From Zootoca vivipara (Eukaryota), in assembly GCF_963506605.1 (NCBI RefSeq), contig NC_083278.1, positions 40,300,001 through 40,364,000 of the forward strand: a DNA stretch of 64,000 bases, read 5' to 3'. Shown one piece after another: positions 16,679 through 63,826 of this stretch; the first letter of the stretch is position 1, and every line of letters starts with the position of its first letter. Under the pieces are notes generated by a model. That model saw only the letters and a program-made list of their open reading frames with translations. It made no database searches and was not told the DNA's origin. Made by a program: the position numbers and the translations under genes.

Positions 16679-19600
16679 ATGACTCACTCACAAGCTGAAA
16701 GTGTCATAAAGAATATCATCCGTGAAATAGGACAAGAATGTGCCATGAAAGGTCAAACTGTATCAGAAACTCTGGTGGCATTCATGGTAAGTGCAAAATA
16801 CACAGTTCGCTAATGTGCTTCATTTAAAAGCTCATCTTTCTAGCAGTGTTAGAAACTGAAATATGAAAGCTAGGAGCTAAATGGCACCTTAAACCTAGGT
16901 TATGGGTGCCACAGATCATGGCCACTGATCATGGCCAAGATCATGGCCACTGGTCCCATCACCTCCTGGCAAATGGAAGGGGAAGAAATTGAGGCAGTGA
17001 GAGATTTTACTTTCTTGGGCTCCTTGATCACTGCAGATGGTGACAGCAGTCACAAAATTAAAAGACGCCTGCTTCTTGGGAGAAAAGCAATGACAAACCT
17101 AGACAGCATCTTAAAAAGCAGAGACATCACCTTGCCTACAAAGGTCCGTATAGTTAAAGCTATGGTTTTCCCAGTAGTGATGTATGGAAGTGAGAGCTGG
17201 ACCATAAAGAAGGCTGATCGCCGAAGAATTGATGCTTTTGAATTATGGTGCTGGAGGAGACTCTTGAGAGTCCCATGGACTGCAAGAAGATCAAACCTAT
17301 CCATTCTTAAGGAAATCAGCCCTGAGTGCTCCCTGGAAAGACAGATCGTGAAGCTGAGGCTCCAATACTTTGGCCACCTCATGAGAAGAGAAGAATCCTT
17401 GGAAAAGACCCTGATGTTGGGAAAGATTGAGGGCACTAGGAGAAGGGGACGACAGAGGACGAGATGGTTAGTGTTCTCGAAGCTACGAACATGAGTTTGA
17501 CCAAACTGCGGGAGGCAGTGGAAGACAGGAGTGCCTGGCGTGCTATGGTCCATGGGGTCACGAAGAGTCGGGCACGACTAAACGACTAAACAACAACAAC
17601 ATGGGTGCCACAACAGAATGTCTAGGCGCACTTTTTTAAATAGCAAGAATACCAAGCTGAAAATGAATGAACTGCAGCTAAACCTATCAACTTGCCTGAT
17701 GCTGCAGCAATCTCTTGGAAGTCGAGGTGGGAGGAATTTCTCCTCTTAGGCTCTCAGCGCCAGCAGTGGCAGTTTTAATCTGAAATATTAGACGCGGTGC
17801 TGCACCCAGAGCTCAGAAACTGCTCACGCGAATGAAATTCGCTGTCGCAAAATGCGCCTACAACAACGGGAGTTTCAAACGCTGCTTTCTAGTCACGTTA
17901 CCACGTCACTCCTGTGGCATTAAAATAATGTTAAAGGAACAGAACATCACAAAACATGGTTGTCTCGGGGCTAAAATGCAAGTCACACAAGAGTTAGGCA
18001 GGTAACTCTTGGAGCTCTAGAACCCATGGACAGCTAAGGAAGCTGAACGTTGAAAGATTCGGGACACACAAAAGAAGATGCTTTTTCACGCAGCACATAG
18101 TTAAACTGGGGAACTCACTCCCAACTGAAGCAGTGATGACCACCAACATGGATGGTTTGAGAAGAGTATTCATGACTTTCAATGGCTACTAGCCACAATA
18201 GCTGTGCTCCACCTCCACTTGCAGATTGGAAAAGACTCACTGCTTCTTGTACTTTCCACAGTAGTACACCTACTCTAGCATTTTGCTTCTTGAGCTGGGC
18301 AGGTAATGATGACATTTGTACCGTATTTTTCTGTGTATAAGACACCCCCATGTATTTTGGGGGACTCCAAATTAAGAAAACACCACTCAGCACTACCTGT
18401 GTATAAGACGAGCCCCAATTTTAAACCTAATTTTTGGGTAAAAAACAAAAACTAGTCTTATACACGAAAAAATACGGTACTTCCCCAAATGCTGGGGATG
18501 CGGCATTGGAGCTCACAACCACACTTTTCCAAGCAATGTTTTAAAGGAGGCTAGAACTGAGAGCAGAATAAAACCTCATGCTGGGTTGCTTCTATCCAGT
18601 GTCACCATAGTGGCTGTACCTTTGGACATGGGCGTACCCAGGATCAAAACTAGGGGGGGGCAAGGGGAGGGGCCAAGGCACGGAAGGGGAGGGGCCACAA
18701 AGTGGGCGGGAACGGCAAACTCGCGCTCCGCCGGGCTGTGCCCCTCCCTAGAAGCAGGACTGTTGGGCGGAGGCGGAGCCCAGCCCAGCGGAGCGCGAGT
18801 TCAGCGTTCCCGCCGCGCCGCGCTCTCTGGTTCCCCGCCGCGCTTGGCCTTGCCAGAGGGCGCGACGGGGAGCTGGAGGGAGGGCGCAGCGCGGCGGGCG
18901 GGAACGGCGAACTCGCGCTCCGCCGGGCTGTGCCCCTCCCTAGCAGCAGGGCTGGTGGGCGGAGGCAGAGCCCAGCCCAGCGGAGCGCGAGTTCGGCGTT
19001 CCCGCCCACCGCGCCGCGCTCCCTGGTTCCCCGCCGCGCTTGGCCTTGCCCGAGGGCGCGCCGGGGAGCTGGAGGGAGGGTGCGGCGCGGTGCGGCGGGA
19101 ATGGCGAACTCGCGCTCCGCCGGGCTGTGCTCCGCCTCTGCCCACCAGCCCTGCTTCTAGAGTAGGGCAGCTGCCCTAACTTGCCGCATGGTGGGTACGC
19201 CCTTGCCTTTGGAGCTCTGCTCTATATTTTATTTAATAGAATGATAAATTAACCACTCAACCATTTGTTGCATATTTAAAAATCATTTTTGGTTCCCATT
19301 GATTTTGCTAAAATTTCCAAGTAAGTATGCTTCCCGGGACCAGGGAGTTAGTCCTCATGCCTATTAAATTAAACTGGGAAATGGCATTTAGTGGGGAAAC
19401 CTTGAGCAGTTGGGACATTTAATTTGTTTTATTCTGCGGTTGTATTTGGCAGTAATATTTCTTTAAGAGCACAAGATAAATATTTAAATGGAAGGTTGGT
19501 TGCTTTTTTGTTTGTTTTTTTACTTATAGGTGAAAGCTGTTGTATTGGATCCAAGGAATGGATTTAATGTGGACAGGACCCTTACAAAGGCTGATGTGCA

Positions 19601-28600: not shown

Positions 28601-31600
28601 ATACAACTTCAATTTCTTTGTTTTTTCCCCCTCCCAGCCTATATTTATTGCACTTTCTAACCTTTGGACCAGTTTTCAAGATGAGATCCTGGTGCTGAGT
28701 TTCCTCAATAACTTGACTATCAATCTCCAGCAGTTCCTAGGAGCCCATTCATTGATTTTTCCAGAAGATGTGATGGAATCTCTTCTTGAAGATATTATTG
28801 TAAAAACTGATGAGGACAGGTTAAAAGAAAGTGCTGGTACTAAAACCATAGTTATGCATTTTGAATTAATGTATAAAGTCCATGGAATACTCTTCCTATC
28901 TTCAGATTCTTAGCCCTTTGAGAGCTAGAGCTTCACTTTTATTGCTAAATAAGGATCATGTGTCATAAAAACCACTGAGCCTCTTCGGCTTGCTGATTGG
29001 AAGGTTGGCGGTTCGAATCCCCACAACAGAATGAGCTCCCATTGCTCTGTCCCAGCTCCTGCCAACCTAGCAGTTCGAAAGCATGTCAAAATGCAAGTAG
29101 ATAAATAGGAACCGCTACAGCGGGAAGGTAAACGGCGTTTCCATGTGCTGCTCTGGTTTGCCAGAAGCAGCTTTGTCATGCTGGCCACATGACCTGGAAG
29201 GGACCCAGGTGGCGCTGTGGTTAAACCACTGAGCCTAGGGCTTGCTGATCAGAAGGTCGGCGGTTCGAATCCCTGTGACGGGGTGAGCTCCCGTTGCTTG
29301 GTCCCAGCTCCTGCCAACCTAGCAGTTCGAAAGCATGTCAAAATGCAAGTAGATAAATAGGAACCGCTACAGCGGGAAGGTAAACGGCGTTTCCATGTGC
29401 TGCTCTGGTTTGCCAGAAGCAGCTTTGTCATGCTGGCCACATGACCTGGAAGGGACCCAGGTGGCGCTGTGGTTAAACCACTGAGCCTAGGGCTTGCTGA
29501 TCAGAAGGTCAGCGGTTCGAATCCCTGTGACGGGGTGAGCTCCCGTTGCTTGGTCCCAGCTCCTGACAACCTAGCCACATGGGTACAGGAATGTAATCTC
29601 CGAGGGAAACCTTATTCAGCAAAAGGTTACCTGGGTCTTTGTTTTTTGCTGCAGCTGTTTTGATGAATTGTGTTATTGTTTGGGGAAAAATATGTTTTAA
29701 AATACTGTAAATGTTTTGTGAACTGTTCTGAGGGCTAAAATTGTGGATATAAGTAATAAATAAAATCTGCCCTGAACCTTCCCACCTAATATTTGAAATA
29801 CTAGATTATTCAGTACCTCACTAGGTACTTGTGCCATGGGGTTCAGTGGTCTCAACCTTCCCCAGTAACCATGTGTTTACATGAGTATGATGTGGGGTGT
29901 TTCTAGGTAGGACCTCAATGTTGCAAATGGGTTACTGAGATACAGCAAATGGGTCCTTGGCAACAGGTTTTTAACATCATATTCCCCCCTGAAAGGGAAC
30001 ATTATGATTAAATGCTGGGGGGTGGGGAAAATATACTCTTGTCCAGGCAATCCCAAACTGCAGCCCTCCAGATGTTTTGGCCTACAACTCCCATGATCAC
30101 TAGCTAAGAGGACCAGTGGTCAGGGATGATGGGAATTGTAGTCCACAACATCTGGAGGGCCGAAGTTTGGGGGTGCCTGCTCTTGTCATTTTGACACCAA
30201 CAATATTGTGTGGATATTGCAACTAATAATAAAAATCTTCATGCATGAGCAATTTTCTCCTGCAATAAACACCTGTCTAGAAGCACTCCCATTTTTTCTG
30301 ATACTGAAAATATATCCTAAGCTGGGTTTTTTAATATTTCAGATAGCAAAGTAAATCCCGCTGACTTTACCGTAGAAGAATGGCTCTTCCCAGAAACCAC
30401 CATTAATTTCAGCCAAGTGCAAATTCAGTACCATGGGTTTTGTGCTTACACTTTTGCCGTGAAAGATGGTCTTCTTGTCCCAGGTTTGCCAGTTGTAGAT
30501 AAGTCCCGTTTGCTTTTTAAGAGCATTCTTACTGCTTCATATTATGTTTTAGTTGTAGACTGCATTGCTTTATTTTTATAGAAGTTTGGTGTATAAATAA
30601 AATAAAAATACCTGACAGATAAGGAGCTTGCCACCCAAACTACTGGGGCTTGGTTTATAAATGGAAATGGAGAAGAATTTGAGGCAGTAGGCATGTGGGG
30701 GTGAGGAGGAGGGAAGGAACAGTGGCAAGCATTTGGTAGGAGGGAGATAAAGCTGAGGAAGGGAATTAGAAAATTGGTATACACAGTGATCGGTGGTAGT
30801 TGGGACAAAGACACTACCAAAAGGAAGACCATACAACATATCAACAAGACAAAAGGGCAAAGCCAATCAGTGCCAGAAAGTGATCTATTGGAGACTAATT
30901 CTCTTGGTTGGAGAGAAGAGGGATGTCAGAGCCTCCACTGCTTCAACAGAACCCTGTTTAGAATTCCATTTAGAGCATAAATTTGCATTTGTTTGTCCAG
31001 CAAATAAACTAGAATTTAACAGTGCAGTTTTTAAAAGGGTATTACTATTTTTACTGATGCAATCCACATTATGCAGGATTAGCTATGAAATACTTTAGTC
31101 TTGTTCTTAGTTCATAGAAAGTGTTTTGCTGGGTGAGGAGCATGATTTAAAGTTGACTGAATTTTCAAACAGGTTAGACACTAGAGCCATCCTTAATTTC
31201 AAACGTGAAAACACTATAATCTGCATCAGGAAAGTCATGAAGAAATCCTGTGTTCTTTTGTGCTTTGTTGTCAGCGAACCCTGCTGTTGGAATCCTGAAG
31301 TTTCGGGAGAAATATTATGCCTTTAGTTCCAAGGAAGCGGCATATAATTTTGCCAAGAATCCAGAGAAATGCGTTAAGATGGTTGCAGAAAAAGCAAAGG
31401 AATCTGCAGAGCTCATTCAGCTGCTTGAACTTCATCAGCAATTTGAATCCCTTGCCCCTTATTCTCAGGTATTCAACACATTTATCCTTTACTTATTTAA
31501 GCCACTCCAAGAAAGCTTCATTCTAGAGAAAAGCCAAATAAGAGGCAATCTGGTAGAACTTATGCATAGCATGGAGAAAGTGGATAGAGGAAAGTTCTTC

Positions 31601-33352
31601 TCCCTCTCAAAATGTGTAGATATCAAGGAAGCTGAATGTTGGGAGATTCAGGAGAGATAAGAGAAACTACTCCTTCACACAGCACGTAGTTAAACTATGG
31701 AGTTCTGTCCCACAGGAGGTAGTGATATCCACCAACTTGGGTGGTTTTAACAGGGGAGTAGGCAAATTTATGGAGGACAAGGCTATCAGTGCCTACTAAC
31801 CACAATGGCTGTGTTCTGTCTCAACTGTTGGATGCAGTATGTTTCTGGGAACTGTAGGAGAGGAGAGTAGTCTTTTGCTTGGTCCTGGTTGTGGGCTTCC
31901 CATAGGTTTCTGGTTGAGAACAGGATGTTGGACTAGATGGGCTATTGGCCTGATCAAGCAGGCTCGTGTTCTTATGCTCCAAAAGCAATATAGCTACCAT
32001 TTTAATAATACAGGAAGTTGATCAGGAAGTATCTCAAAGAAGAGGTAATTCTTAATGCATAAGGTTGGCGTCAGTGTCTTGTCTTTACTAGTTTTGGCAG
32101 TGTCTTGTCCTTACTAGTTCATTGTGGGCTTAGCTGCAGTTAGCACAGAATAGCACAGTTCCAGAGTCGCTTGTGGTAGTTGGATGCATTGGTTCAGTAC
32201 ACTCAACACTCCAAACAGCCCCACCTGGAAGTGTGCTAAATGATGTGATGTTGATATATCTTCCCTTTTAGTTTTTATCTAATGCTTGGTTGGAAGGTGA
32301 AAATGTGGAAATAAAAAATAGCTATTCCTTTTTGTTGTTGTTACAGATCAGAGCCAAAGACAAGCAGGGTATGAAACCCATCACAAAATGTGACACCAGT
32401 ACTCAGACGGACGTCCATATTTTGCCACCAAATATTGTGAAGAACTATGAGTGGAATGAATGGGAACTGAGAAGAAAAGCCATCAAACTGGTTTGTGTCA
32501 ACATGATTTGAAAGACTAATTCAGACAAGCTACAAATAACAATTATCTCTCAGATCTTTTCGGACTTAACTCCATGCATTTGACCTTAAATTTTTGAGCC
32601 CCTCCATCTTTTGTTTTCAGCTTTGTTTGGAATTGTAGCTCATAGTGCAACATTCATGCTGAAGCTTTTACTTTGTTACTTTAAAATGTCTAAACTTCCC
32701 TTCATCGTGTCTGGTTGGTATACAATAATGATAATATAAATAAATAAATATGTAAACATCACATATCCTTTATAACAATAAAACTGAGAGGCAACAAACC
32801 TATGAAGCAGCCAGTGGCAGTAAAATGAATTAAAATGCCTGGGCAAACAAAAATAAGTCTTGATCTTGCACCAAAGAAGTGGAAAATGCTTTCCCCTTGC
32901 TAGTTCATTGTCGACTTAGGCTTTATACACATCCTAGATGATCAGTTAATGCAATCCAGCCTTGATAAGAAAGTATAAATCATTTATAAGTCTTTCAGGC
33001 AGTGCAATCCTTTAACATAATTTCACATTATGTTAAATGCAACTGTGATAATTCTTTTATCTTTGTTTTTTGTTTTTTATTTTTTTATTTTTTATTTTTA
33101 TTTTTATTTTTTGTTTTTCAGGCAAACTTGCGCCAAAAGCTAACTCACTCAGTGCAGACCAATCTCAGTCACATGAGAAGGGACAACTGCAGCCAGGTGT
33201 ACCCACTGAAGGATAACGGTACACAGACCAAGCGTGAAAGCAGTACTAATGTACCCAAACCTCAGATTTTCCTGGCTGGTCTCCGTGGAGGAACACCTCC
33301 AACTACCCGCATGTTCAAAATCAATTTAACAAGAGCAGTTGATGAAACATAA
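16679..33352 (+). CDS. CFAP206: Cilia- and flagella-associated protein 206, 622 aa
   Basis: join(16679..16786,19530..19613,20841..20931,21663..21851,23588..23746,25334..25542,26673..26792,28638..28836,30343..30483,31275..31468,32347..32490,33122..33352) = 1869 nt, all GT-AG and in phase. Motifs AESVIKNIIREIGQEC, YVLLRSGLGSPTDIK, YEWNEWELRRKAIKL and NLTRAVDET*. AATAAA at 33367-33372. Confidence 0.96.
16914..17600 (+). mobile_element. BovB (RTE LINE), 5'-truncated copy
   Basis: ORF 16931-17494 encodes the RTE/BovB C-terminus (KAMVFPVVMYGSESWTIKKA...RIDAFELWCWRRLLRVPWTARRSN). Ends in a (CAA)n tail; 12-bp TSD ATGGGTGCCACA (16902-16913 / 17601-17612). Confidence 0.93.
18020..18250 (+). mobile_element. 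CR1 LINE 3' fragment
   Basis: Degenerate CR1 ORF2 3' end: AAGCTGAAC...GGGACACACAAAAGAAGATGCTTTTTCACGCAGCACATAGTTAAACTG. Confidence 0.55.
18321..18477. mobile_element. Tc1/mariner (pogo/Tc2-like) MITE
   Basis: TIR CCGTATTTTTCTGTGTATAAGAC / GTCTTATACACGAAAAAATACGG with TA TSD. Confidence 0.8.
18627..19205. mobile_element. GC-rich hAT-type non-autonomous element with internal tandem and inverted repeats
   Basis: TIR CATGGGCGTACCCA / TGGGTACGCCCTTG and 8-bp TSD CCTTTGGA (18619-18626 / 19206-19213). Internal units recur at 18706, 18898 and 19095. Confidence 0.8.
22854..23080 (+). mobile_element. Penelope-like pLTR remnant
   Basis: 13-bp TSD CATAAGGATTTCA (22841-22853 / 23081-23093). Contains the hammerhead motif; same family as 3726-3929. 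Confidence 0.78.
22986..23023 (+). ncRNA. Minimal hammerhead ribozyme motif, sense in a CFAP206 intron
   Basis: Identical 38-mer to 3851-3888. Predicted cleavage after C23019. Confidence 0.72.
23766..23911 (-). mobile_element. BovB 3' fragment
   Basis: Reverse complement of the 3' end of 16914-17600. 10-bp TSD TACCGGTACT (23756-23765 / 23912-23921). Confidence 0.85.
24514..24951 (-). mobile_element. Solo LTR
   Basis: TGTTA...TAACA termini, 5-bp TSD GTCTG (24509-24513 / 24952-24956), and a minus-strand AATAAA near 24735. Confidence 0.65.
25008..25097. mobile_element. 90-bp hAT MITE
   Basis: 15-bp TIR CATAGCTGCCAAGTT and 8-bp TSD GTCCTCAG. Confidence 0.85.
27229..27364. mobile_element. 136-bp hAT MITE
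   Basis: CAGGCAT...ATGCCTG TIRs and 8-bp TSD CTCTAACC. Family members at 30044 and 42845. Confidence 0.88.
27682..27887. mobile_element. Foldback hAT MITE (near-perfect palindrome)
   Basis: TIR TAGGGTTGCCA / TGGCAACCCTA extending inward for about 90 bp; 8-bp TSD TTTGCAGG. Confidence 0.88.
28968..29575 (+). mobile_element. Head-to-tail array of truncated Sauria SINE units (252-bp period)
   Basis: The SINE head GGGACCCAGGTGGCGCTGTGGTTAAACCACTGAGCC occurs at 29200 and 29452, each with the B-box GGTTCGAATCC. A 5'-truncated first unit starts near 28968. Confidence 0.85.
30044..30179. mobile_element. 136-bp hAT MITE
   Basis: CAGGCA...TGCCTG termini and 8-bp TSD CTCTTGTC. Confidence 0.88.
31510..31980 (+). 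mobile_element. CR1 LINE 3' fragment
   Basis: Degenerate CR1 ORF2 end (GAGAAAGTGGATAGAGGAAAGTTCTTCTCCCTCTC...TTCACACAGCACGTAGTTAAACTATGG) plus the 3' UTR tail. Confidence 0.6.
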
Positions 33353-35339
33353 ATGACAAGTCCTTCAATAAATGAACTTTAAAAACAAAAAGTAAATTCA
33401 TTGTGTCTCATTCTTTGTTGTTATTTCAAAGGCAATCTTTGCATCATTAATGGGGCCAGATGAAAGGTATCATGGGTAAGTTGAGTCTTCTATCCCCAGC
33501 TTTGTCCCATTGTAGCATCCTGTATTGGAAGGTGCAGTACTAGCTATATTTGTGGACTTCTACTCCTCACCATGCAATGCTCCCACCTATCCTCTGTCAA
33601 TCTTAGCAATTAGCCCTCCCATTCTGAACACCTTTCTTTCCTTCTTTTTGAGGGGACGACGGGAAATTCACTTTTCCTTTGGACTTGGATTTCATCTAGT
33701 AAATATTTTGAATGACTTCAATTGTACCAAAGATACTTAACTTCTGGTTCCTTGAGGCCTGACTGTAAAGTAGCAAAGAAATCTAGAATTTTAATGCCGG
33801 TGTTTCCTGCTTGGAAACAAAAGGCATAGCCAAAGTCCCGACTTTTCCTAAATCGGGTATCATTTTGCATTGAAAATATTTTGTGTTTTTGAACATTTAA
33901 AAATATTCCCGGCAGTACAGCCCGTCATTCCTATATTGCTACAGCAAGCTGGAGGTCAGTGGAAGAGCGTGGCTTGAGGGCTTAAAGCCATGACCCCGAG
34001 ATTAAGAGTCTCATGCCCCCATCTAAACAAATCGTACTGATCAGGGAGCGACCTGTGGCTGTTGGCGGCCTCTCAAGCTGACCCACCTCACAGTGTTGTG
34101 ATGGTAGCTATGAAAGCGGAGAGCACCAGAGGCCGCCCTGAGCCCCTTGGAGAAAAGGCAAGATAGGAAAAATGCAGCTGGGCTGCTACAGTGGTGTCCT
34201 GCCTTCTGGCTAAGACTCACCCAACACATTTTTAATAGCGGGGATAGAAATAAGAGTATTTTGGCTGCTGCAGCTAGCCAAACACTGCTTTCTCTGCAAT
34301 CCCCTTTCTCATTCGCAAGAGGCGAAAGAAGCAGATGCTGAGCAACCTCACTCACTTCCAGTGTAAAACTGCCTTAAGCCCCCATCGAGGTTGCCACCAG
34401 AGGAATTTGGCACTTTTCAAAACCAAGGAGATCTTATTCGTTTATTTGTTTACTGAAAGTTGTCCTCCACTGGACCATTCGAAAAACAAACAAACCTCAA
34501 AGCAGAATGGTAAAAATATCAGTAAAGGAATACCAAGAGCAAAATGGAAAATGTACATTTACTTTATGATGCTTTGAAATTCGAACTTCAGTGTACTTAG
34601 TATGTTAGTAGTCTTACTCATTAGTTTTTTATTCCCTTTTTAAATTTTGTTTTTCTTATCTTGCATAAAGTGAGAATGCATCAGGCTGAATTCACTGGCA
34701 GTGTTTTTCTGACTTGGAGTTTTTTTGTATGCACTACTTTGATTTTCAACAAATGAAATTTTTAAAGGAGGGAGGAAGTAGGATTTTTCACATTCCAAAG
34801 GAGTTTTGGGAGGCTTTCCCCCCTTCGTGATAAAAAATGCTATGTTTTAGAGGTGAGGAGCGAAGGAAATATTTTGCTCATGGCTTAAAACAGTTTTGAA
34901 TTCCCCACCCCAATGTACTCTTTGGTGACGACAAAGGAACAGGAAGACACTTTTATTAATTTAAGCAAAGCAAGAGAAGCCAAGTAAGCAGTATAACTTA
35001 AAAAACCCACAACTTTATTGCAAGTTCAACAAGTACATAATTATACATGCGCTAAACATGGTGAGACGTAAATAAGAGAGAAAAAGATAAACGGAAACAG
35101 TGTAAAGGGGGGAAAACCCCAAACTGTATATTTTACAATTTTGTTATTGTACCAGACTTTAACCTATTACATTATTTGCTGCAGAGAGCCCGGGCCAATG
35201 TTGACGTTCGCTGGCGAAACTCAAACGAGGGACTCAAGAGAACAAGGGACTGATGAAAACATTCCTTGCACTCCCAACATTTATATGCTCTTTATTCCTT
35301 TGAAGGTTTCCACTCTGTGAAAAACACATTTCCCACACT

Positions 35340-38300
35340 CTACACATTGGGAAGGTCTCCTCCTGTGTGGACTTTCTGGTGTCTGCGAAAATGTGCTGAC
35401 TGAGAAAAACATTTCCCACACTCCAAGCACTTGTAAGGTTTTTCTCCTGTGTGGATCCTCTGATGGATCACAAGGTATGACTTCTGAGAAAATGATTTTT
35501 CACACTCCAAGCATTTGTGGGGTTTCTCTCCTGTGTGGGTTCTCTGGTGCCCCCTAAGGTTTTCTGCTAAAGTAAATGACATTCCACAATCTAAACATTT
35601 ATGTGGCGTTTCTCCTGTGTGGACTCTCCTATGAACAGTAAGGCCTGATGAGAAAGAAAAACATTTCCCACACTCTCCACATTCATATGGCCTCGCTCCT
35701 GTGTGGATTCTCTGGTGTACATGAAGGTATGATTTGTGGGCAAAACATTTTTCACACTCCATGCATATGTAGGGCTTTTCCCCAGTGTGGATTTTTTCAT
35801 GCCGCTTGAGGTGTTGTTTCTGAGAAAATGATTTTTCACACTCCATGCATTTATAGGGTTTCTCTCCTGTGTGGGTTCTCTGGTGCCCCCTAAGATTTTG
35901 CGCTAAAGTAAATGACATTCCACAATCTAAACATTTATGTGGCTTTTCTCCTGTGTGGACTCTCCTATGAACAGTAAGGCCTGATGAGAAAGAAAAACAT
36001 TTTCCACATTCTCCACATTCATATGGCCTCACTCCTGTGTGGGTTCTCTGGTGGTTCACAAGGGTGCCTTTCCTTGAAAAACATTTGCCACACTCCAAGC
36101 ATTTGTGGGGTTTCTCTCCTGTGTGGGTTCTCTGGTGCCCCCTAAGACTTTGTGCTAAAGTAAATGACATTCCACAGTTTAAACATTTATGTGGCTTTTC
36201 TCCTGTGTGGACTCTCCTATGAACAGTAAGGCCTGATGAAGTAGAAAAACATTTTCCACATTCTCCACATTCATATGGCCTCACTCCTGTGTGGGTTCTC
36301 TGATGTTTCACAAGGGTGCCTTTCCTTGAAAAACATTTGCCACACTCCAAGCATTTGTGGGGTTTCTCTCCTGTGTGGGTTCTCTGGTGCTCCCTAAGAC
36401 TTTGTGCTAAAGTAAATGACATTCCACAGTCTAAACATTTATGTGGCTTTTCTCCTGTGTGGACTCTCCTATGAACAGTAAGGCCTGATGAAACAGAAAA
36501 ACATTTCCCACACTCTCCACATTCATATGGCCTCACTCCTGTGTGGATTCTCTGGTGTACATGAAGGTATGATTTCTGGGGAAAGCATTTTCCACACTCG
36601 GTGCATTTGTAGGGTTTCTCCCCAGTGTGGATTTTTTCATGCCGCTTGAGGTGTTGTTTCTGGGAAAAGCATTTTCCACACTTGGTGCATTTGTAGGGTT
36701 TCTCCCCAGTGTGGATTCTCTGGTGCCCCCTAAGACGATGTGCTAAAGTAAATGACATTCCACAGTCCAAACATTTATGTGGCTTTTCTCCTGTGTGGAC
36801 TCGCCTATGAACAGTAAGGCCTGATGAAACAGAAAAACATTTTCCACACTCTCCACATTCATATGGTCTCATTCCTGTGTGTATCCTTTCATGTACACGA
36901 AGCTCTGACAGGCTAGCAAAGCATTTCCCACACTCCATGCATCTGTAGGGTTTCTCTCCCGTATGCACCTTCTGATGTCTGGGGAGGTGCTGTTTCTGGG
37001 AAAACCGTCTCCCACACTCCACACATTCATACGGTTTCTCCCCTGTGTGGATTCTCCGGTGGATTACAAGTTCCGATGCTGAAATAAAGCTTTTCCCACA
37101 CTCCACACATTTATGGGGCATCTCTCCAGTGTGAACAGTCTGATGCCTCAGAAGGACAGCCTTCTCATAAAAACATTTCCCACACTCTCTACATTCATAG
37201 GGCTTCTCTCCTGTGTGGATTCTCTGGTGTCGCCTGAGATTTGTTTTTGAGGGGAAACATTTTCCACACTCCAGGCACTTTTGGGGCCATTCTCCTGTGT
37301 GGGTTCTCTGATGGATTACAAGGCCTGACTTGTGAGCAAATGATTTCCCACACTCCAGGCATTTATAGGGTTTTTCTCCAGTGTGCGTTCGCTGATGGTT
37401 AACAAGTTTTGACCTAACAGAAAAGCATAACCCACACACACTGCATTTGTGGGGCTTCTCTCCTGTGTAGACTTTACAGTGTTCACAAAGCTGTGATCTC
37501 TTGGGGAACCCGATCCTACTCTCGCCATATTTGCAGTGTTTTTCTCCCATGTGGCCTCTTTCATGTTTCACAAAATCTGAAAGTTGGGAAAAACCTTCCC
37601 CACACTCCAAACTGCGATATGAGTTATCTCCTCCTGTATGGATGTTCTGGTGGATCAGAACGATGGGCTGATGAACAAGAACCTTCCTGAACTCCGAAGA
37701 CTTGGGGGGTTCCAAATGGCTCGCAAGCTCCGAATTCTGACCCAAACATTCCCCGCTCTCAGAGTTTTCCTGGATCTTCTCCCCTGTGTGGATTCTCTGG
37801 TGTCTGGCAAGAGCCAATCTGAAGGCAAAGCATCGGCCATACTCTGGGCTGAAATGTTTCCTCCTCAAGTTTCCTGCTGAGAATGAACAAAGCGGAATCA
37901 GGGTTAGAAGATGGCAGAGAAGTAGCCTCAGAATCCAACCTGAGATGGTTAGACAGATGATGCATGAGAGATGGAGGTCATACCACTTCTCTCCCCGCTC
38001 ACCACTGCATATGGTATAACCAGTGGAAGAGCTATTTTTATTTATTTTGTTGATGAAGTAACAGAGAACATGTTTCTTGCCAATTCCCATCAACAGAGGA
38101 GAAACTCTGAAACGACTCGTCATCCCACCCAAACCGCCTCACCTGAGCTGGTGTCCGAAATGGCAGCTCCTGTTCCGTCTGAGATCTGATATTGTGGGGG
38201 CCTGGACTCTTCTGTTTGCTCTGCGCTGGGGACGAGGCTCATCTTGGGAAGCAGCAGGGCTACGCGGGAAAGAAGTGAGAAGAAGGAAGAAGAGGAGGAG

Positions 38301-39495
38301 GAGGAGGAAGAAGAAGTGAGGAGAAGCAAGCATTCTGCCTCATGGCCCAAACCATCTCCAATGGCTGTTCATCCAAAGCTCCCTCAAACATTTCTGGAGA
38401 AGGAGAACCCGTAACTAAACAGCTTGGGTTAGGGGGCTGGATGTTTGTGGGGGGGGGGCAAGGTGGTCCTTCGCTCTGTGTCGGAAGGTTGAGGGAGGAC
38501 TACTGAAGATGTCTGGGGGGTGGGGGTTCGGGACAGCACTGCCAGGACCCCAGGGAAGGAACCTGGATGGTGCTTGCAGACTGTTGCTGTTACGCTGGGG
38601 GGGGGGTCCATCACACGCCAGTAAACTCATTTTATACAGCTAAAGTGCAGCACAGTGGTTAAAGTGCAAGACTAGAACGTTGGAGACCTGGGTTCAAATC
38701 CCGCCTCAGCCATGAAACTCATCGGGAAATATTTGTCCAGTCATTCCCTCAGGGCTAGCCTACCTCAGAGAGATTGTTGCTGTTGTTATTCCCTGCCCAT
38801 CCGAAATCTTTAATTTTACACAGAATCCTACCTTACACCCACACACAAGTCTCTACATCTATGCTAGCTTACTACTACTACTTTCTTGTTTCTACCCCAC
38901 CCATCTGACTGGGTTGCCCCATCCACTCTGTGCAGCTTCCAGCACATATAAAAGCATAATAAAATATCAAACATAAAAACTTCCTGATACAGGGCTGCAT
39001 TCAAACGTCTTCTAAAGGTTATATTTGTTTATTTCCTTGACATCTGGTGGGAAGGCGTTCCACAGAGAGGGCGCCACTACCAAGAAGGCTCCCTCTGCCT
39101 GCTTCCCTGTAACTTTGCTTCTCGTGGTGAGGGAATCGGCAGAAGACCCTCGGAGGAGGTGGGCCTCAGTGTCCGGGCTGACCGATGGGGCTGGAGAGGC
39201 TTTTTCAGGTATACTGGGCCGAGGCTGTCCGGGGTTTGTTGTGGGGATTAATTGAGGGGGAGACCCGTGTAGCCCACCTTGAGCTCCTTGGAGGGGGAAA
39301 AGGTGGGATCAAAATGCAAGGCATTTGGAATAAAGTACATTTGCAGCTCTCGTGCACCAAACCTGCTCCCCAAATACCCTTCCTCCCCAAAAGCAACATG
39401 ACAAGAAAATGTCCCGGAAGGACGGCTTCAGACTCTTGCAGGGAGGGAGGAAGCTCCTTACCCAGAGAGGCCACGTTCCCCTCATTCTCTAGCAT
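35340..39495 (-). CDS. KRAB-type C2H2 zinc-finger protein (25 intact fingers, disrupted KRAB-A), about 895 aa
   Basis: Predicted complement(join(35340..37876,38143..38259,39462..39495)). The large exon has 25 CxxC...HxxxH fingers with TGEKP-type linkers from 37451 down, preceded by about 5 degenerate fingers. 38143-38259 is a KRAB-B-like exon. The KRAB-A exon 39462-39586 reads LTFEDVAVYF... then ...MLENEGNVASL in a different frame. The start at ATG 39495 is inferred. Minus-strand AATAAA at about 35014-35019 and 34952-34957. Confidence 0.85.
35520..36863 (-). repeat. 84-bp-unit higher-order coding tandem repeat (fingers 8-23: ABCD-ABE-ABE-ABCD-AB)
   Basis: 16 x 84 bp, with near-identical nucleotide copies of each finger type. 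Confidence 0.9.
38870..39230 (-). mobile_element. L2 LINE 3' fragment
   Basis: Similar to 58169-58577 (CCCATCTGACTGGGTTGCCCC...CAGGGCTGC...GGGAAGGCGTTCCACAG). Confidence 0.65.
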
Positions 39496-39812
39496 GGCCT
39501 CCCTTGCTCTTCGACCAACGTCCAGCAGGGAGGGCCCTTTCGACCCTGGCGAAATAAACAGCCACGTCCTCAAAGGTTAGCAGTCTCTGTAATGACAAAA
39601 CACCCTCAGCAATAACTGCAGCACCTCAGGAACACCTTTGGTGGCAAGCGCAGAGTGGGAATTTTGTCTTCCCCATAGAGGCTTGCAACTTCATTGTTTT
39701 TATTAAAGATTTTCTTGGGTTACCAAAAAAGTGCATACATCGTCTGTTTTCAGATCATAAAAGTCCTTTCTTCAGATCATTTATATGCAATGTGAGACTT
39801 TAATGCCCTATA

Positions 39813-40041
39813 CGCTTTCCAAACGGTGTGTCGCGACACATTAGTGTGTCGGCTGCAGTGTGTAGGTGTGTCTTACAAATGCTCCCCACATTCCTCCCGG
39901 GGCTGGAGTTAGTTTAAAATCTGTTTTGCTAGGGAAACTGAATTACTGCATCGCGAAATGATGCAAAACTGAATTACTCTGCTGCAAAATGATGCATGTC
40001 TAAAAAGTGTGTCACCAACATGAAAAGTTTGGAAAGCTCTG
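39813..40041. mobile_element. hAT MITE (same family as 43179-43376)
   Basis: TTTTCCAAAC...AGTTTGGAAAGCTCTG termini and shared internal sequence. Confidence 0.7.
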
Positions 40042-40379
40042 CTGCATGCAGTATAAGGTGGGGGGGGGGAGAGAAGGGGGATAAGTAGACTTTCATTCTT
40101 TTACATAGTGGATGTGCAAGGTTTTTGTTTCAGCGTCACATGGATAGGTTATTTTTCTACTCATCTATTAGTTTTCATTGGCACTGACAAACCTTTGATA
40201 AAAAATTGTGGTTTTCTTTACATATTTGTAAAAAAAAAATCTTCTTTATGGTCCAGCTCTCACTTCCATACATCACTACTTATATATAAGTCACAAATTA
40301 ATAGCGCGTACATATGATACCGTAGTGCAGAGTAACGTGCTATATACGTGAAAGTATCCACTATGAACTCATGTAACGT

Positions 40380-40870
40380 TTTAAACCGCAGCAGGCTGCG
40401 CGCGAACCCGCGCGATTCCCCCTCCTGAGGACATTCCCATGGCTTCCGGCGGAAGTAACGAGTCATACTGCGCTCCAACCATAGAGCGGCTGGTCCGCTC
40501 TAGCCTCCGACGGTTGCTGTCTCTCGTATACTGGGAGGCTTGGCGGGGCGGGCTTGAGCGCTTGCGGAGACGGATTCCTTTTGGATACCATGGCGCTTCC
40601 GAAAGGTGAGTGAGAGGCACCCTGCCGCCGCCGCCGCCGTTCTCCCCGTTATGCGTAAATGGAACAGTCCGTTCTACTGAGGCAAATAGCCAGGCGTCAT
40701 CATGTTACTTGGAAGGCAGGGGTGGGATGTGAAGTGGGGGTGGGGGAGTTTGGAGACCTGCCTGATAACGCGGGCGGGGAGGTGACTGGCACCGGGGACT
40801 CCGGGGGGCAACAAACCCGGCCCGGCTGCCTGGCTGCTCTGCTGGGAAGCGGCTCTCGCTCAGGGGGGTC
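40380..40870. promoter_or_regulatory. CpG island promoter of SLC35A1 (candidate bidirectional with the ZNF gene)
   Basis: CpG-dense. Inverted ETS pair CTTCCGG-CGGAAGT at 40443-40456 and a GC box at about 40545-40552. Contains SLC35A1 exon 1. Confidence 0.8.
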
Positions 40871-43800
40871 TCTCTGCTCTTGTGTTAAGGAGGCGAAATA
40901 GTCTAAGGTTCATCGATGGAAGATAATGCTTCCTCCCTCTTTAAAGACATTGGCATGTCGGGGTCTCGCCAGGGCCGCTGGCAGGATTTGTGGGGGTTGA
41001 ACCCAAAATGTTAATCACAACGAATTTCCGCTCCCCATTCCCTCTGCTTCAGGTTGCTTAGGCGAAAGAATAGTCCCCCCTTGAAGCTCCCTCCGAGCAT
41101 GGAAATATCGCAGACTTCGTCTGTGAACACAGACTTGGAAACCTTTAGCCGCTTCTCGCATCATCCTTTCATGCAAACGGTGTCTGATGATGCTCCGTGT
41201 CACTCACTTGGCAACCTATTATAATAGCTGTTCTTGTGCAATGACCCTGGTCTAGAAGGCAAGCTCTTTCTCTAGATCCATGCGTATGTATTAATCGGTC
41301 TGAAATGCTAGGAGAGAGGTTTTCACATTAGAAAATAAATGCATCTAGGGATACATGAAATTGTAATGCAAAGAAGTGGCTTGCCTATCGTTGTGGTGTT
41401 AGAAACGTGCTTTCTCCCGTTTCTGAAAAATTGGGCCAAATAGACTTCTTTACGCATAGCACTTTTGTGTGTGCGTTGTTATAAGGACGTTAGATGATCT
41501 CTGTTGGATCACACCAATGGCCCATCTAGTCCAACATCTTGTTCTCACAGAGGCCAACCAGATGCCTATGGCTAGCCTGCAGGTAGGAGCTGAGGGCGGC
41601 AGCACTCTTCTCAAGATTCCCAGTAACTGAAATTCAGAGGAATAGTGCCTTCTACAGTGGAGGTACAATAGCCATTGATAGGTTTAGGTAAAGGTAAAGG
41701 GACCCTTGATCATCAGGTCCAGTCGTGACCAACTCTGGGGTTGCGGCGCTCATCTCGCGTTATTGGCCAAGGGATCCGGCGTACAGCTTCCATGACAAAG
41801 CCACTTCTGGCAAACCAGAGCAGCACAGGGAAACGCTGTTTACCTTCCTGCTGTAGCTATTCCTGCTATTTATCTACTTGCACTTTGACGTGCTTTTGAA
41901 CTCAGGGCCAGCTCTACAGCCAGGCTGGGTGGCGCAGGGCGCCATGGCGCCGGCCCGCCAGGGGGGGGCGTCACGCAGCCGTGCCTGCCCACCCGCCGGC
42001 CGCGCAGCAAGCCCGCCAGCCCGCCCGTCACACAGCAGCGCCCTCGGCGACCGCGCTGCACGCTGAGCCCGGCCACCCACCCACCCGTCGCGCTGGAAAA
42101 TGGGGCGGCGGCGGGATCCGTCACACCAGGGCGCCAAAGGTGCTTAAGACGGCCCTGTTTGAACTGCTAGGTTGGCAGGAGCTGGGACCGAGCAACTGCC
42201 GACCTTCCGATCGGCAAGCCCTAGGCTCAGTGGTTTAACCCACAGCGCCACCTGCGTCCCATTGATGGGTTTATCCTCCATGAATTTGCCTGTTCTTTTT
42301 TTATAAAAAGCAATCTGAGATGGTGACCATCACTACATCTTGTGAGACCAAATTCCAAAGTTTAACTATATATGTGCTGCCTGAAGAAGTACTTTCTTTT
42401 GTCTGCCCTGAAGCTTCCAACATTCAGCTTCCTTGGATGGCCCTGGGTTTCTAGGATGAGAGAGGAATCTGCTTTCCCCACACAGTGATAATTGCATCTT
42501 TTGCAGATAATTCTGCTGTTTGCATTTAGTTTGATATACACCTGAATTAGGCTGAAGGAAATAGAGTTATATTGTACTCAATTTAAATTACTCAGGATGT
42601 ACTCAGTTTAAATTAGTGCAACAGTGCATGTATTACTTGTACCTTGCAGGGATGTTTACACAGTCAAGGTGTATGAGTAACAGGATTTAGTAATTCCCAG
42701 TCATATCAGAATATGGTGTAATGATTCATGCATTCACTGTTGAGTTAATAACGAAATAAAGGTTTATACAGTTAAAGATAAATTGTTTAATCAACAGTCC
42801 AATTCAACTGTAACTATGTTATTTTTGGTGGCCAGAGACTAGATCAGGCACCCCCAAACTGCGGCCCTCCAGATGTTTTGGCCTACAACTCCCATGATCC
42901 CTAGCTAACAGGACCAGTGGTTGGGGAAGATGGGAATTGTAGTCCAAAACATCTGGAGGGCCAAAGTTTGGGGATGCCTGGACTAGATGATGGCTGTTCT
43001 ACTATACATCTTATGAAGAATCTGAAGTTCCTTGATTAGTAGCTTCTTATTTGCTGATGCTAAAACCAGTATGTGGAAATAATTTCATTTACTGTATTTC
43101 TGTTGGCCTTTGGTTTCAAGAACAGTTATAGGTGCCAGATGAGGTACCATTTTGAAAATAGCCTACAATTATCTAGACCAGAGCTTTCCAAACTCTGTGT
43201 CGTGACATGTTAGTGTGTCAGCTGCAGTGTGTCATGCGAACACTCCCCACCCTCCTCTCTGGGCTGGGAAGGGGTTAATTTAACCTCCAGTTTGCTAATA
43301 AAACTGAATTACTGTGTCACGAAATGATGCATATCTAAAAAGTGTTCCACCAACATGAAAAGTTTGGAAACCTCTGATCTAGAGAGCCGAGAGTGCGATA
43401 AGGCACTCTCCCACACCAGTTTGAAGGGCCTTTGAGCCCTGGCCCCACATTAGCCCTTCTGACAGGGGATGAGCAGGGCTACTTTGGCATGCTAATCAAT
43501 CGGTTAATGCTTATCAATTAAACAATTAATTAAATGTATATCCCTCCCTCCCAAAGGAGCCCAGGGCAAACACACTAGTGATAAACCAATGCAGTTAAAA
43601 ATAAAACATGTTCAAAACATCCCAAACCAATTAAAAACATATGAAAGCAGTAACATAGCCTTATTTCAGAGTTGCCAGGAACAGTATCTTTTGGCCATCA
43701 AATGCCTTGGTAAACAGGAACATTTTAAAGTTCCTCCTGAAACTTATTTGTGAAGGAGACAGATGTGCCTCACCAGGGAGGGTTTTCCACAATTGAGGAA

Positions 43801-61200: not shown

Positions 61201-63826
61201 GCATCACTTTACATTTTCTCATGAAATGATGACAGCATCAACAGACCTGAATGATAAATGCTGCGAGCCCAATCCTTTCAGCTGTCTCAAGAGGGTTGTC
61301 CAGTTCTTTGGTTGCTAAGTAGATAACAAAAGGTGAGGTGGGGAGAGTGTCAATGTCACACTGGATTTCAATGTCACACTAAACTGTGGATTGGCAAACC
61401 ATAAATGAGTCTAGCCTTCTCCTAGGCTTGCAGATTCCTTGCAAACTCCCTTATGCTCCTCCTGCTTAACTTGCAGAAGGAGTTCACAAGTTTTCACATC
61501 TGTTTTTGGTTAACCGCAGGTCACTGTGCCATCTGAACTGGCACATTGGTCAATGCCTATAGGGAATTTTAACAAGTCAGCTTAGAAACCAGGGTTTGAA
61601 GTGATCTTGTTTGAAACTAATGGTAGCTCATGTTAAGCACCATTTGTTGGGCTTGGAGGACACAACAAAAATGCTAAGGCCAGGCAGGCATTTCCATTTG
61701 CACAAGCATTACGTTAATAAGAGAGACGGATCAGCTAACTTTTTGCAGAAGCACTTTGTTCTATCACCATGGAGCGAGCTTCATCCAAAACATCGTCAAG
61801 GAAAACCACTTCTCCTTTCCGAGTCCTCATTCCTTGAACTCTTCCAAAGGGCACATGCTGGCACCTACAGGAAGACAGGGGACCAGAAATGCCTGTCGTT
61901 TTATTTTCCAAGGTACATAAACTAGAAATGTTATTCCTTCTGAACAGAAATATTGTCAGCACATCTTGGGATTCACAACTGTGCTCAGAAAGAAATTACT
62001 TTGTCGTTCTTAGTATCTGGGCACATGTTCAAACATGAGGTGGAGGAGAAGGGAGATCATTCTTTCAGGCAAGCAAATAAATTTGCACTGACTGAGCAAT
62101 CAGAAGAACTCAACACTGAATTCCTCCAATAGGGCACCTTCAAAGCCTTAGTATGCCATAAAGGCGTGTGTGTGTGTTGCCATATATTTCAAAAATCGAA
62201 AATCTGAATAGAAAAATTAAGTTGTTGAGCTTTTTACTAGCGACATGGACTGCCAAACGTCCAGATTTCCCTGGGCATTTCACCAATTTCTGCCTGGACG
62301 CTGCTTAAGGGGGTTGAATACCGGACGTATGGCAACTCTGCTATAGATATATAGATAGGCAAGTACACATTTACCTTTCTGCCCATTGGTAACCCATTAA
62401 TTTTAGTATCTGGAAGACCTGTTGAAAATGAGGGATCTGGCTTTTATCTGTCTTGAAAAAGGGAAAGAAGAAGAAGAAAGAATCATTAAATGTACATTCA
62501 AACAGACACACAAGTGGAATATCCAAGGTGGGACAAATAATGGGGATAAAGGATGAAACTTGTGTATCTGAGAACATGATATTCTAACATAACCTTTGGA
62601 AAAGCACTCTCAGGTAGGCGAAATCAAACTTGACAGAAAGATCCAGTCTTGAGATGACCACCCATCTCCAAAAATTGTCAGAAAAACTCCGCCCTCACAA
62701 CTTTAAAAGCTTGTCAACTTTTTATTTGCTCAGGCCACAGGTTGTACCAGAGATTCTGGGTTGTAGCCAATGGCGACCCTCCATTGATGGAAAGCTTTGA
62801 TCCAGCAGAAACTTCCATCCCTGCCCCGCAAGCTAATCTCACCCCAGCACTATATCTACTTTCATTTATCTTTCCTTTTGCTGCTGCCAAAGTCAGTGGG
62901 GATTGAGGGCCGAATCAGAATTATGTGTTTGACGGGCTGAGGAGCCAGCCCACCCTGCTCTACACCCACCAGTCTGCAGGACAGCCAGACTTACCACATA
63001 TATCATAGTGTCAGGATTCCTTTTTTCCACTCTGTCTATAGCAGCAGCAAGATCTCTGGAAAAGAAAGACAAATACAGTCGTGCCTCGGTAGTCGCAACA
63101 AAATCTGTTCCGGAAGTCTGTCGACTTCCAAAACGTTCGGAAACCAAAGTGCGGCTTCTGATTGGCTGCAGGAAGCTCCTGCAGCCAACTGGAAGCCGCG
63201 GAAGCCTCGCCAGATGTTCAGCTTCCAAAAATAGTTCGCAAACTGGAACACTCACTTCTGGGTTTTCGGCGTTTGGGAGTAAAAATGTTCGAGAACTAAG
63301 CTTTTCGAAAACCAAGGTACGACTATAAGACCAAACGAAACTTTTTCAAAATTAAACAAACTTTAACTTACTCATTGTTAATCCTTTTGCGATTATGATT
63401 TGCCACTGGTCAGTATTTTGTCATGTCTGTATAACAGAGGATAAGGCTGACTGCCACTCTGTACTGAGAAGCATCTCACCAGGTAGACTGGAGCCCCATT
63501 TAACTCAACATGTCTTACTTTGGAGATATATAGATAGGCAAGTACACATCAGAATGCTGGGCCATTTCTACAGCAGCACCCAGGTTATAGAACTCCTTCT
63601 TTTATTTATTTCACAGAGCTTTTAGTGTGGGTGACAGTTCTGGGATGTTGTTGTTTTTTGCCAAATTATTTTATGCCTTTGTTTTTATTGTATTAAAGTT
63701 ACTGCTAAACAACCAGGCAAAAAGAATAATAATACTTGCCTCGTTAGGTAGAGCGAGGTTCCATCACTCCGCATTACAGCAGAACGGTCCCCCTTTTCGG
63801 ACAGGTAAACTACTCCTGTTCCTTCT
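55069..63826 (-). CDS. RARS2: Mitochondrial arginyl-tRNA synthetase, 3' ten coding exons (gene continues past the window end)
   Basis: complement(join(55069..55155,56833..56896,59868..59942,60665..60763,61050..61159,61247..61314,61740..61864,62375..62451,62995..63055,63740..63826)), in phase throughout. Motifs [45 protein letters not shown] and [14 protein letters not shown]. Minus-strand AATAAA at 54512-54517. Confidence 0.96.
58169..58577 (-). mobile_element. L2 LINE 3' fragment with (AAT)n-associated tail
   Basis: The minus-strand ORF encodes [15 protein letters not shown]...[15 protein letters not shown], an L2 ORF2 C-terminus. (AAT)n at 58169-58216; possible TSD ATATGATA. Confidence 0.8.
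63076..63325. mobile_element. Tc1/mariner (Tigger-like) MITE
   Basis: CAGTCGTGCCTCGG / CCAAGGTACGACTA termini with TA TSD. Confidence 0.75.

What the first reader, a model, noticed from the sequence alone, without database searches (positions are those of the whole stretch)
35520..36863. Minisatellite-like zinc-finger array with variation focused on DNA-contact residues
Seen: fingers 8-23 form ABCD-ABE-ABE-ABCD-AB. The five A fingers differ at helix position -1 (V,V,T,F,F) plus one linker change. The five B fingers differ at +2/+3 (HR,QS,QS,QN,EN) and +6 (G,E,G,G,G) plus two other residues. The two E fingers differ only at +6 (K/N), and the D fingers differ at -2/-1. C and D copies also differ in the beta-hairpin region. 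Known: positions -1, +2, +3 and +6 set base specificity, and concerted evolution with contact-site diversification is typical of PRDM9 and TE-targeting ZNFs. Inference: recent block duplication with diversifying selection on specificity, possibly tracking a repetitive target, and probably length-polymorphic.
Basis: partly seen in the sequence, partly recalled or inferred. Interest (0 to 1): 0.7.

Follow-up and report, generated by a model that had tools for sequence, protein, structure and literature searches.

The report
Relocated KRAB-broken lizard zinc-finger gene
This is a 25-finger zinc-finger gene with block-duplicated fingers, a relocated member of a young family whose KRAB repressor exon is frameshifted; the family's DNA-contact residues change faster than neutral, likely to follow changing targets such as transposons, a pattern well known from other vertebrates and unlike PRDM9.

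Summary
In detail: fingers 8-23 of a 25-finger C2H2 array read ABCD-ABE-ABE-ABCD-AB with the residues stated. Amino-acid changes are enriched at contact sites (10 of 23; p=5e-4), but within this array contact dN/dS is 1.2, not distinguishable from 1. It is not PRDM9-like: no two fingers are identical, and the diversity statistic is 0.22 (rank 22 of 55 arrays) against 0.70 for the genome's own PRDM9. The gene is a 6.27 kb intron-retaining copy of one unit of a nine-unit tandem cluster on another chromosome. It sits between CFAP206 and SLC35A1 and lacks the unit's putative promoter. The paralogs share the same finger types in other orders. Across the family, contact dN/dS is 1.8-2.7 (p 3e-3 to 4e-6), also in non-repeated fingers. 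All ten copies have a broken KRAB-A exon yet keep an internal ATG; 7 of 9 paralogs and this copy have long open frames. Verdict: ordinary poly-zinc-finger birth-and-death evolution, with one twist: a likely KRAB-less family still under positive selection. Target, expression of this copy and length polymorphism remain untested. The scan's earlier notes held nothing on this locus.

The parts
35520..36863 (-). Fingers 8-23, block order ABCD-ABE-ABE-ABCD-AB
35352..37451 (-). 25 consecutive intact C2H2 fingers
35340..37876 (-). Last coding exon (spacer with degenerate fingers, array, stop); tandem-AG acceptor at 37876
   Evidence: exon border predicted from splice signals shared with paralogs
38143..38259 (-). 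117-nt phase 1-1 exon in the position of a KRAB-B exon; same length in 8 of 9 paralogs
   Evidence: KRAB-B likeness is by position and recalled consensus, not a Pfam hit
39462..39586 (-). Vestigial KRAB-A exon: Pfam KRAB positions 2-17 and 28-42 lie in different frames; first ATG at 39495 opens a predicted 895-aa product
33975..40240 (-). Segment homologous, introns included, to one unit of the tandem cluster G000:C2:8.61-8.75 Mb; 9-12% non-coding divergence from each of nine units; lacks the unit's ~2.3 kb spacer with putative promoter and first exon
40241..40280 (-). 40-bp RTE/Bov-B-type LINE fragment at the upstream junction, identical to copies at window 17173-17212 and in the cluster; no target-site duplication found
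   Evidence: element name recalled
40300..40900 (.). CpG-rich promoter region of SLC35A1 (ATG at 40590, plus strand), head to head with the copy, 310 bp from the junction; candidate borrowed promoter
   Evidence: promoter use not shown
31241..33352 (+). 3' coding exons of CFAP206, left neighbour; presumed stop 623 bp from the insert
   Evidence: Pfam FAP206 at 31241-31660; last exon 32990-33352 inferred, no Pfam hit

Best explanation
This is a 25-finger C2H2 gene of a young ten-member family with a frameshifted KRAB-A exon, copied with its introns from a tandem cluster on C2; its repeat blocks likely arose by unequal crossing-over and gene conversion, and the predicted KRAB-less protein likely binds DNA targets that keep changing, most likely transposons. 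Shown: array structure, family membership, intron-retaining copy, KRAB-A frame break in every copy, purifying selection on the finger backbone, contact-site dN/dS above 1 across the family. Inferred: recombination as the cause of the blocks; translation from the internal ATG; no TRIM28 recruitment (the N-terminal half of KRAB-A is out of frame; its need for TRIM28 binding is recalled); expression of this copy from the SLC35A1 promoter region (about 50%); transposons as targets (about 55%, by analogy only), bound by occupancy or through a cofactor other than TRIM28.
For: Nine full units on C2 carry finger types A-E and G in different order and number, 14-33 fingers per open frame. The five A fingers here are closer to each other (nearest 2-3 nt) than to any cluster finger (6-9), so they were duplicated or homogenised inside this gene. 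Adjacent C10 and D11 share a hairpin codon (Thr) absent from all 7 cluster C and 8 cluster D fingers, a sign of out-of-register conversion. Family dN/dS at -1,2,3,6: A+B 2.4-2.7, C-G+Z 1.8, single-copy fingers 1-5 1.9, each p<=0.003 against 1; other sites 0.25-0.45. Tree-free estimates 1.6-3.8 with bootstrap intervals above 1. Contact pN 0.28 exceeds non-coding divergence (about 0.10) in 44 of 45 gene pairs, and synonymous divergence is not higher in the helix (0.07-0.125) than in the backbone (0.13-0.18), which argues against a conversion artefact. ATG, 34-nt coding stretch and donor are kept in 10 of 10 copies while the upstream half is interrupted or lost in 4. The 2.5 kb exon is intact although 14-17 frameshifts are expected at the non-coding indel rate. 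Sense-oriented RNA reads lie on the three exons. Precedent: PMC2604467, PMC5363842, PMC10547256.
Against: No binding motif or target was predicted or tested. In this gene alone contact dN/dS is not above 1. RNA reads were laid at 90% likeness and may come from paralogs; no minus-strand coverage was seen at 40332-40525, where a borrowed promoter would start (depth low, 6% of two runs, tissue unknown). Codon models assume a tree that gene conversion violates (PMC5519329 section 25); gene pairs are not independent. The indel expectation comes from BLAST gaps in homopolymer-rich introns and is probably too high. Selection on the open frame may predate the move to C3.
Confidence: 0.55

Rival explanations
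1. Contact sites in this copy are merely relaxed: redundant duplicated fingers keep their fold but drift at the helix, and the positive selection belongs to the family's earlier radiation.
For: Within-gene contact dN/dS 1.22-1.24, bootstrap interval 0.4-3.0. A and B fingers carry V, T, F, L, G at contact positions, residues that give little base specificity by the canonical code (recalled).
Against: Only 10 contact events, so power is low; A,B,E alone give 1.9-2.0, in line with the family's 1.8-2.7.
Confidence: 0.25
2. The C3 copy is a silent, promoterless duplicate that moved recently from a source copy now missing from C2; its intact frame reflects selection before the move.
For: The putative promoter and first exon found in nine places in the cluster have no match in the window. 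The junction LINE fragment is 40 of 40 identical to young copies. No minus-strand reads at 40332-40525; in organism B a 970-bp contig fits only from 40281 rightwards. No close protein among the 120 best hits listed in each of three searches.
Against: No stop or frameshift in 2.5 kb and 25 of 25 fingers intact; no close source among the nine units (9-12%); five AATAAA sites downstream; a CpG-rich promoter lies 310 bp away. An unmutated 40-mer has about 13% chance at 5% lineage divergence, so it is weak evidence of youth.
Confidence: 0.2
3. A PRDM9-like coding minisatellite under ongoing concerted evolution and diversifying selection, length-polymorphic.
For: 11 of 25 fingers have a twin within 5 nt, among the three highest counts in 55 arrays; contact-site enrichment.
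Against: Diversity share at contact sites 0.22 versus 0.70; mean identity 66% versus 92%; no identical fingers versus 4 of 11 in PRDM9. No SET or SSXRD here; the genome's PRDM9 lies at C6:21.73-21.76 Mb.
Confidence: 0.08
4. The repeat order is an assembly artefact.
For: No read-level check of the array was obtained.
Against: Every copy differs by at least 2 nt, differences favour synonymous sites outside the helix, the frame is intact, there is no N nearby, and paralogs show the same block style.
Confidence: 0.02

Closest known systems
Lineage-specific KRAB/poly-zinc-finger expansions (PMC2604467; mouse clusters PMC5363842, PMC12575710)
   Same: Tandem cluster, finger gain and loss between paralogs, runs of 2-7 fingers repeated within a gene (PMC5363842 section 7), positive selection at -1, 3, 6, retroelements inside the cluster, three-exon KRAB-A/B/finger layout.
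   Different: KRAB-A is broken in all ten copies, apparently before the expansion; PMC10547255 states that the KRAB domain of all recent human members recruits TRIM28. This copy moved as DNA with introns, not by retrotransposition.
PRDM9 zinc-finger minisatellite (PMC5519329)
   Same: Near-identical fingers within one exon, with changes concentrated at contact residues.
   Different: No SET or SSXRD; five finger types in blocks rather than one homogenised unit; statistic 0.22 versus 0.70 for this genome's PRDM9.
KRAB-less transposon-binding zinc-finger proteins: ZNF146/OZF, ZNF507 (PMC8896011); fish FiNZ-ZNFs (PMC10547256)
   Same: Poly-C2H2 without a working KRAB; the fish families expand under positive selection at contact residues.
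   Different: ZNF146 is single and highly conserved; FiNZ genes carry their own N-terminal domain and never had KRAB. Here a KRAB remnant supplies the start codon. Transposon binding is shown for those, untested here.

Membership tests
Poly-C2H2 zinc-finger genes | Tandem CX2CX12HX3H fingers with TGEKP-type linkers in one exon | tested here: met
   25 fingers; Pfam zf-C2H2 and zf-H2C2_2
KRAB zinc-finger proteins | Intact KRAB-A domain in frame with the fingers | tested here: not met
   Two halves in different frames; same break or further loss in 9 of 9 paralogs
KRAB zinc-finger proteins | Descent from a KRAB-A / KRAB-B / finger exon layout | tested here: met
   Pfam KRAB 20.8 bits over cut-off 20.4 for the first half; phase-1 exons in the usual order
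KRAB zinc-finger proteins | TRIM28 recruitment and repression | not testable with these tools
   Predicted absent from the frame break; bench test needed
Lineage-specific poly-ZF expansion under positive selection | dN/dS above 1 at contact residues among recent paralogs | tested here: met
   1.8-2.7 by ML, 1.6-3.8 tree-free
Transposon-targeting zinc-finger proteins | Sequence-specific binding to transposable elements | not testable with these tools
   No motif predictor or binding data available
PRDM9 | KRAB-SSXRD-PR/SET domains upstream of the array | tested here: not met
   The one SSXRD hit in the genome is on C6, next to KRAB-like and SET motifs and an 11-finger array; none in the window gene
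PRDM9 | [quoted passage not shown] | tested here: not met
   Rank 22 of 55 arrays sampled by similarity to this one, not genome-wide
PRDM9 | High allelic length polymorphism | not tested
   No read-level data on the array
Retrocopy | No introns, poly(A) tail, target-site duplication | tested here: not met
   Introns kept, no duplication found

The most novel reading that the evidence does not exclude
A reptile zinc-finger family discarded its KRAB repressor domain before expanding and still runs an arms race at its DNA-contact residues, acting as TRIM28-independent binders or as competitors of canonical KRAB proteins; one member escaped the cluster and came alive by borrowing the SLC35A1 promoter.
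Probability: 0.2. Interest if true: 0.6.

Novelty: new variant of a known kind. Interest (0 to 1): 0.33.

Why it matters
The block-repeated array is an ordinary feature of young zinc-finger genes. What deserves a second look is that positive selection on DNA specificity continues in a tetrapod family whose KRAB domain is broken in every copy. If confirmed, target chasing does not need TRIM28 silencing, and a ten-gene family with shared, reshuffled finger modules is a compact test case. The relocated copy also bears on how new zinc-finger loci are seeded outside clusters, which PMC12575710 names as open.

Tried and rejected
PRDM9 identity or likeness: rejected. Retrocopy: rejected, introns kept. 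KRAB frameshift as an assembly error or as damage to this copy only: rejected, shared by the paralogs. Conversion of the backbone inflating contact dN/dS: not supported. One parent unit: not resolved; the non-coding tree is star-like with support 44-74 for the nodes that matter, although finger order and finger 6 (1 nt) point to unit C2:8620. Three protein searches were swamped by generic zinc fingers (best identity about 61% among the 120 rows listed in each) and three exact look-ups were empty, so no ortholog alignment could be made; this is no evidence of absence. No RNA holder was listed among indexed runs. No tRNA genes in the window. Earlier notes of the scan: none nearby, one unrelated. 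Dropped before selection tests: fingers with a stop or a broken C2H2 pattern (A 3 of 27, B 4 of 34, C 1 of 9, E 1 of 18, G 3 of 18, Z 2 of 11, finger-2 type 1 of 9) and cluster fingers over 16 nt from any window finger. Literature searches listed no paper on this locus or on a KRAB-broken squamate family; the library lacks most subscription journals, and no supplements were read.

Full report
Observation. The minus strand carries a stop-free frame at 35340-38138 with 25 consecutive intact C2H2 fingers at 35352-37451. Fingers 8-23 span 35520-36863 and fall into five types with 2-10 nucleotide differences within and 21-35 between types, in the order ABCD-ABE-ABE-ABCD-AB. The blocks are of different ages: ABE/ABE 3.2%, AB/AB 3.6%, ABCD/ABCD 9.2%. 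No two fingers are identical.

Selection within the array. Of 23 minimum nonsynonymous events, 10 lie on positions -1, +2, +3, +6, which hold 14% of nonsynonymous sites (p=5e-4). A codon model of my own (three fixed site classes, trees per finger type) gives dN/dS 1.24 at contact sites, 0.26 elsewhere and 0 at structural sites. Contact differs from other (p=8e-4) but not from 1 (p=0.61); A, B and E alone give 1.89 (p=0.18). So the backbone is under purifying selection, and the contact sites are either relaxed or positively selected; 16 fingers cannot tell.

Gene anatomy. Upstream lie a 117-nt phase 1-1 exon (38143-38259) and a KRAB-A-like exon (39462-39586). Pfam KRAB positions 2-17 and 28-42 match in different frames; the first frame stops inside the exon. 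The first ATG of the exon (39495) opens a predicted spliced product of 895 aa with 25 fingers and no KRAB-A. The neighbours are CFAP206 (left) and SLC35A1 (right, head to head, ATG at 40590). The genome is 1.44 Gb in 48 contigs; I take it for a lizard from its repeat types (recalled) and its SCAN-KRAB gene content (inference).

Origin. Window 33975-40240 is homologous, introns and 3' flank included, to the repeat unit of a tandem cluster at G000:C2:8.61-8.75 Mb with nine full units, one fragment and a more distant relative. Non-coding divergence from each unit is 9-12% and the tree is star-like. The copy lacks the unit's spacer of about 2.3 kb. That spacer holds a conserved segment with a ZNF143-type motif (name recalled) and a splice donor, found nine times in the cluster and not in the window. 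The upstream junction carries a 40-bp LINE fragment identical to other copies; no target-site duplication was found. This fits a DNA-level copy joined in by repair (inference). In organism B a 970-bp contig fits the SLC35A1 promoter from 40281 rightwards and its first 515 bases do not fit the laid stretch, consistent with, but not proof of, an empty site. Organisms B and D both have contigs on the family's exons at 90% or better.

The family. All units use the same finger types in different order and number. This gene's A fingers are nearer to each other than to any cluster finger, so part of the array grew or was homogenised inside this gene; C10 and D11 share a hairpin codon that no cluster C or D finger has, a sign of out-of-register conversion. 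KRAB-A is broken in all nine units: five share the same frame break without a gap, two have it plus an insertion in the 5' end, two lack the 5' half. The ATG, 34-nt coding stretch and donor are kept in 10 of 10 copies, and 7 of 9 units give spliced frames of 559-1121 aa with 14-33 fingers; one is frameshifted early and one lacks the middle exon. An intact KRAB-A 20 kb beyond the cluster scores 63 bits against about 10 for the remnants.

Selection across the family. Contact-site dN/dS is 2.4-2.7 for A+B (44-54 fingers, p<=2e-5, also without this gene), 1.76 for C, D, E, G, Z (59 fingers, p=0.003) and 1.9 for the single-copy fingers 1-5 (48 fingers, p=0.002-0.003); other sites 0.25-0.45. Tree-free pairwise estimates are 1.6-3.8 with codon-bootstrap intervals above 1. 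Against an independent yardstick, contact pN (0.28) exceeds non-coding divergence in 44 of 45 gene pairs, and synonymous divergence is lower in the helix than in the backbone. Pairs are not independent and conversion violates tree models, as PMC5519329 (section 25) warns, but three methods agree. The signal is family-wide and not special to the repeat block.

PRDM9 control. The genome's only SSXRD hit is on C6, with KRAB-like and SET motifs and an 11-finger array beside it. That array scores 0.70 on the statistic of PMC5519329 (I used -1,3,6 and -1,2,3,6; the section read does not list the positions), has 92% mean identity and 4 fingers with identical twins. The window array scores 0.22 (0.28), rank 22 of 55 arrays, 66% identity. 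The 55 arrays were chosen by similarity to this one and are not a genome-wide sample. By twins within 5 nt (11 of 25) it is among the top three, so block duplication is stronger than average.

Expression. Two RNA runs (about 6% of each read, tissue unknown, 90% likeness) show low sense-oriented depth on the KRAB remnant (2.2, 3.2), the middle exon (0.1-0.6) and the start of the last exon (0.45, 0), none in the bins 37907-38100 and 38295-38876, and none at 39556-39652, which hints at a cryptic acceptor inside the old KRAB exon. No minus-strand depth lies at 40332-40525. Paralogs are 83-94% identical in these exons, so the family is likely transcribed but this copy's expression is undecided. Its intact 2.5 kb exon, against 14-17 expected frameshifts, shows selection on its lineage, possibly in part before the move. 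No read-level data on the array were obtained, so order and polymorphism rest on the assembly.

Mechanism. Shown: modular array, family, relocation, KRAB-A break, selection pattern. Inferred: unequal crossing-over and conversion reshuffle a shared set of finger modules; point changes at -1, +3, +6 (pN 0.31, 0.32, 0.44; +2 and +5 about 0.19) retune specificity; the product starts at the internal ATG and likely cannot recruit TRIM28; the targets are likely young transposons, bound by occupancy or through another cofactor. The last step rests on analogy only.

Comparison. PMC2604467 (passages and section 10) reports positive selection at -1, 3, 6 and finger gain and loss in lineage-specific expansions, including KRAB-less ones in fish. 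PMC5363842 (passages and section 7) reports runs of 2-7 finger signatures repeated within mouse genes. PMC12575710 (passages) describes segmental duplication and retroviral load in young mouse clusters and leaves the seeding of new clusters open. PMC10547255 (passages) states that recent human members recruit TRIM28 and evolve faster than KRAB-less finger genes. PMC10547256 and PMC8896011 (passages) give KRAB-less transposon binders. PMC5519329 (passages and section 25) supplied the statistic. No supplements were read. Ten searches listed no paper on this locus or on a KRAB-broken squamate family; that is limited evidence.

Verdict. Observation confirmed; interpretation partly supported. The array works like the finger arrays of young KRAB zinc-finger clusters. 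The gene descends from a KRAB gene but fails KRAB membership, and it is neither PRDM9 nor PRDM9-like. Interest 0.33; the KRAB-less arms-race reading has probability about 0.2 and would merit 0.6.

Noticed in passing
G000:C6:21732900-21758340 (L035-L037): PRDM9 candidate with KRAB-like, SSXRD and SET motifs and an 11-finger array, 92% mean identity, variation almost only in the helix; a stop follows the second histidine of finger 11.
   Followed up: partly
G000:C10:69519.3-69520.6 kb (L067): A second zinc-finger gene outside C2: 17 fingers, 81% mean identity, second-highest contact-site diversity share (0.33) of 55 arrays; more homogenised than the gene studied.
   Followed up: no
G000:C2:8723185-8731088 (L026-L027): Gamma-like provirus (Pfam Gag_p30 below cut-off, RT, RNase H, integrase, TLV_coat) inside the zinc-finger cluster; described only.
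   Followed up: partly
G000:C2:8713096-8717247 (L025): Copia-type LTR retrotransposon frame (gag, integrase, RVT_2) next to it in the cluster.
   Followed up: partly
G000:C2:8654299-8657562 (L002/L003): Paralog with 33 fingers in one frame; 16 of 36 finger units have a twin within 5 nt, a larger block-repeated array than the window's.
   Followed up: yes
G000:C2:8708 kb and 8737 kb units: Two units in opposite orientation differ by only 3.7% in non-coding sequence and flank the two retroelements: a younger inverted duplication.
   Followed up: partly
window 28969-29575: Tandem of 2.4 copies of a 252-bp SINE-like unit at 94% match inside CFAP206.
   Followed up: no
window 18442-19179: GC-rich stretch with internal repeats and long overlapping frames on both strands, inside the CFAP206 region.
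   Followed up: no
window 33975-34030: The downstream breakpoint of the copied segment falls inside a short dispersed repeat that resembles a tRNA-derived SINE (recalled), with many matches genome-wide.
   Followed up: partly
window 62893-63345: Minus-strand frame resembling a RARS2 exon (recalled, no Pfam hit), which would match the human order CFAP206-SLC35A1-RARS2.
   Followed up: no
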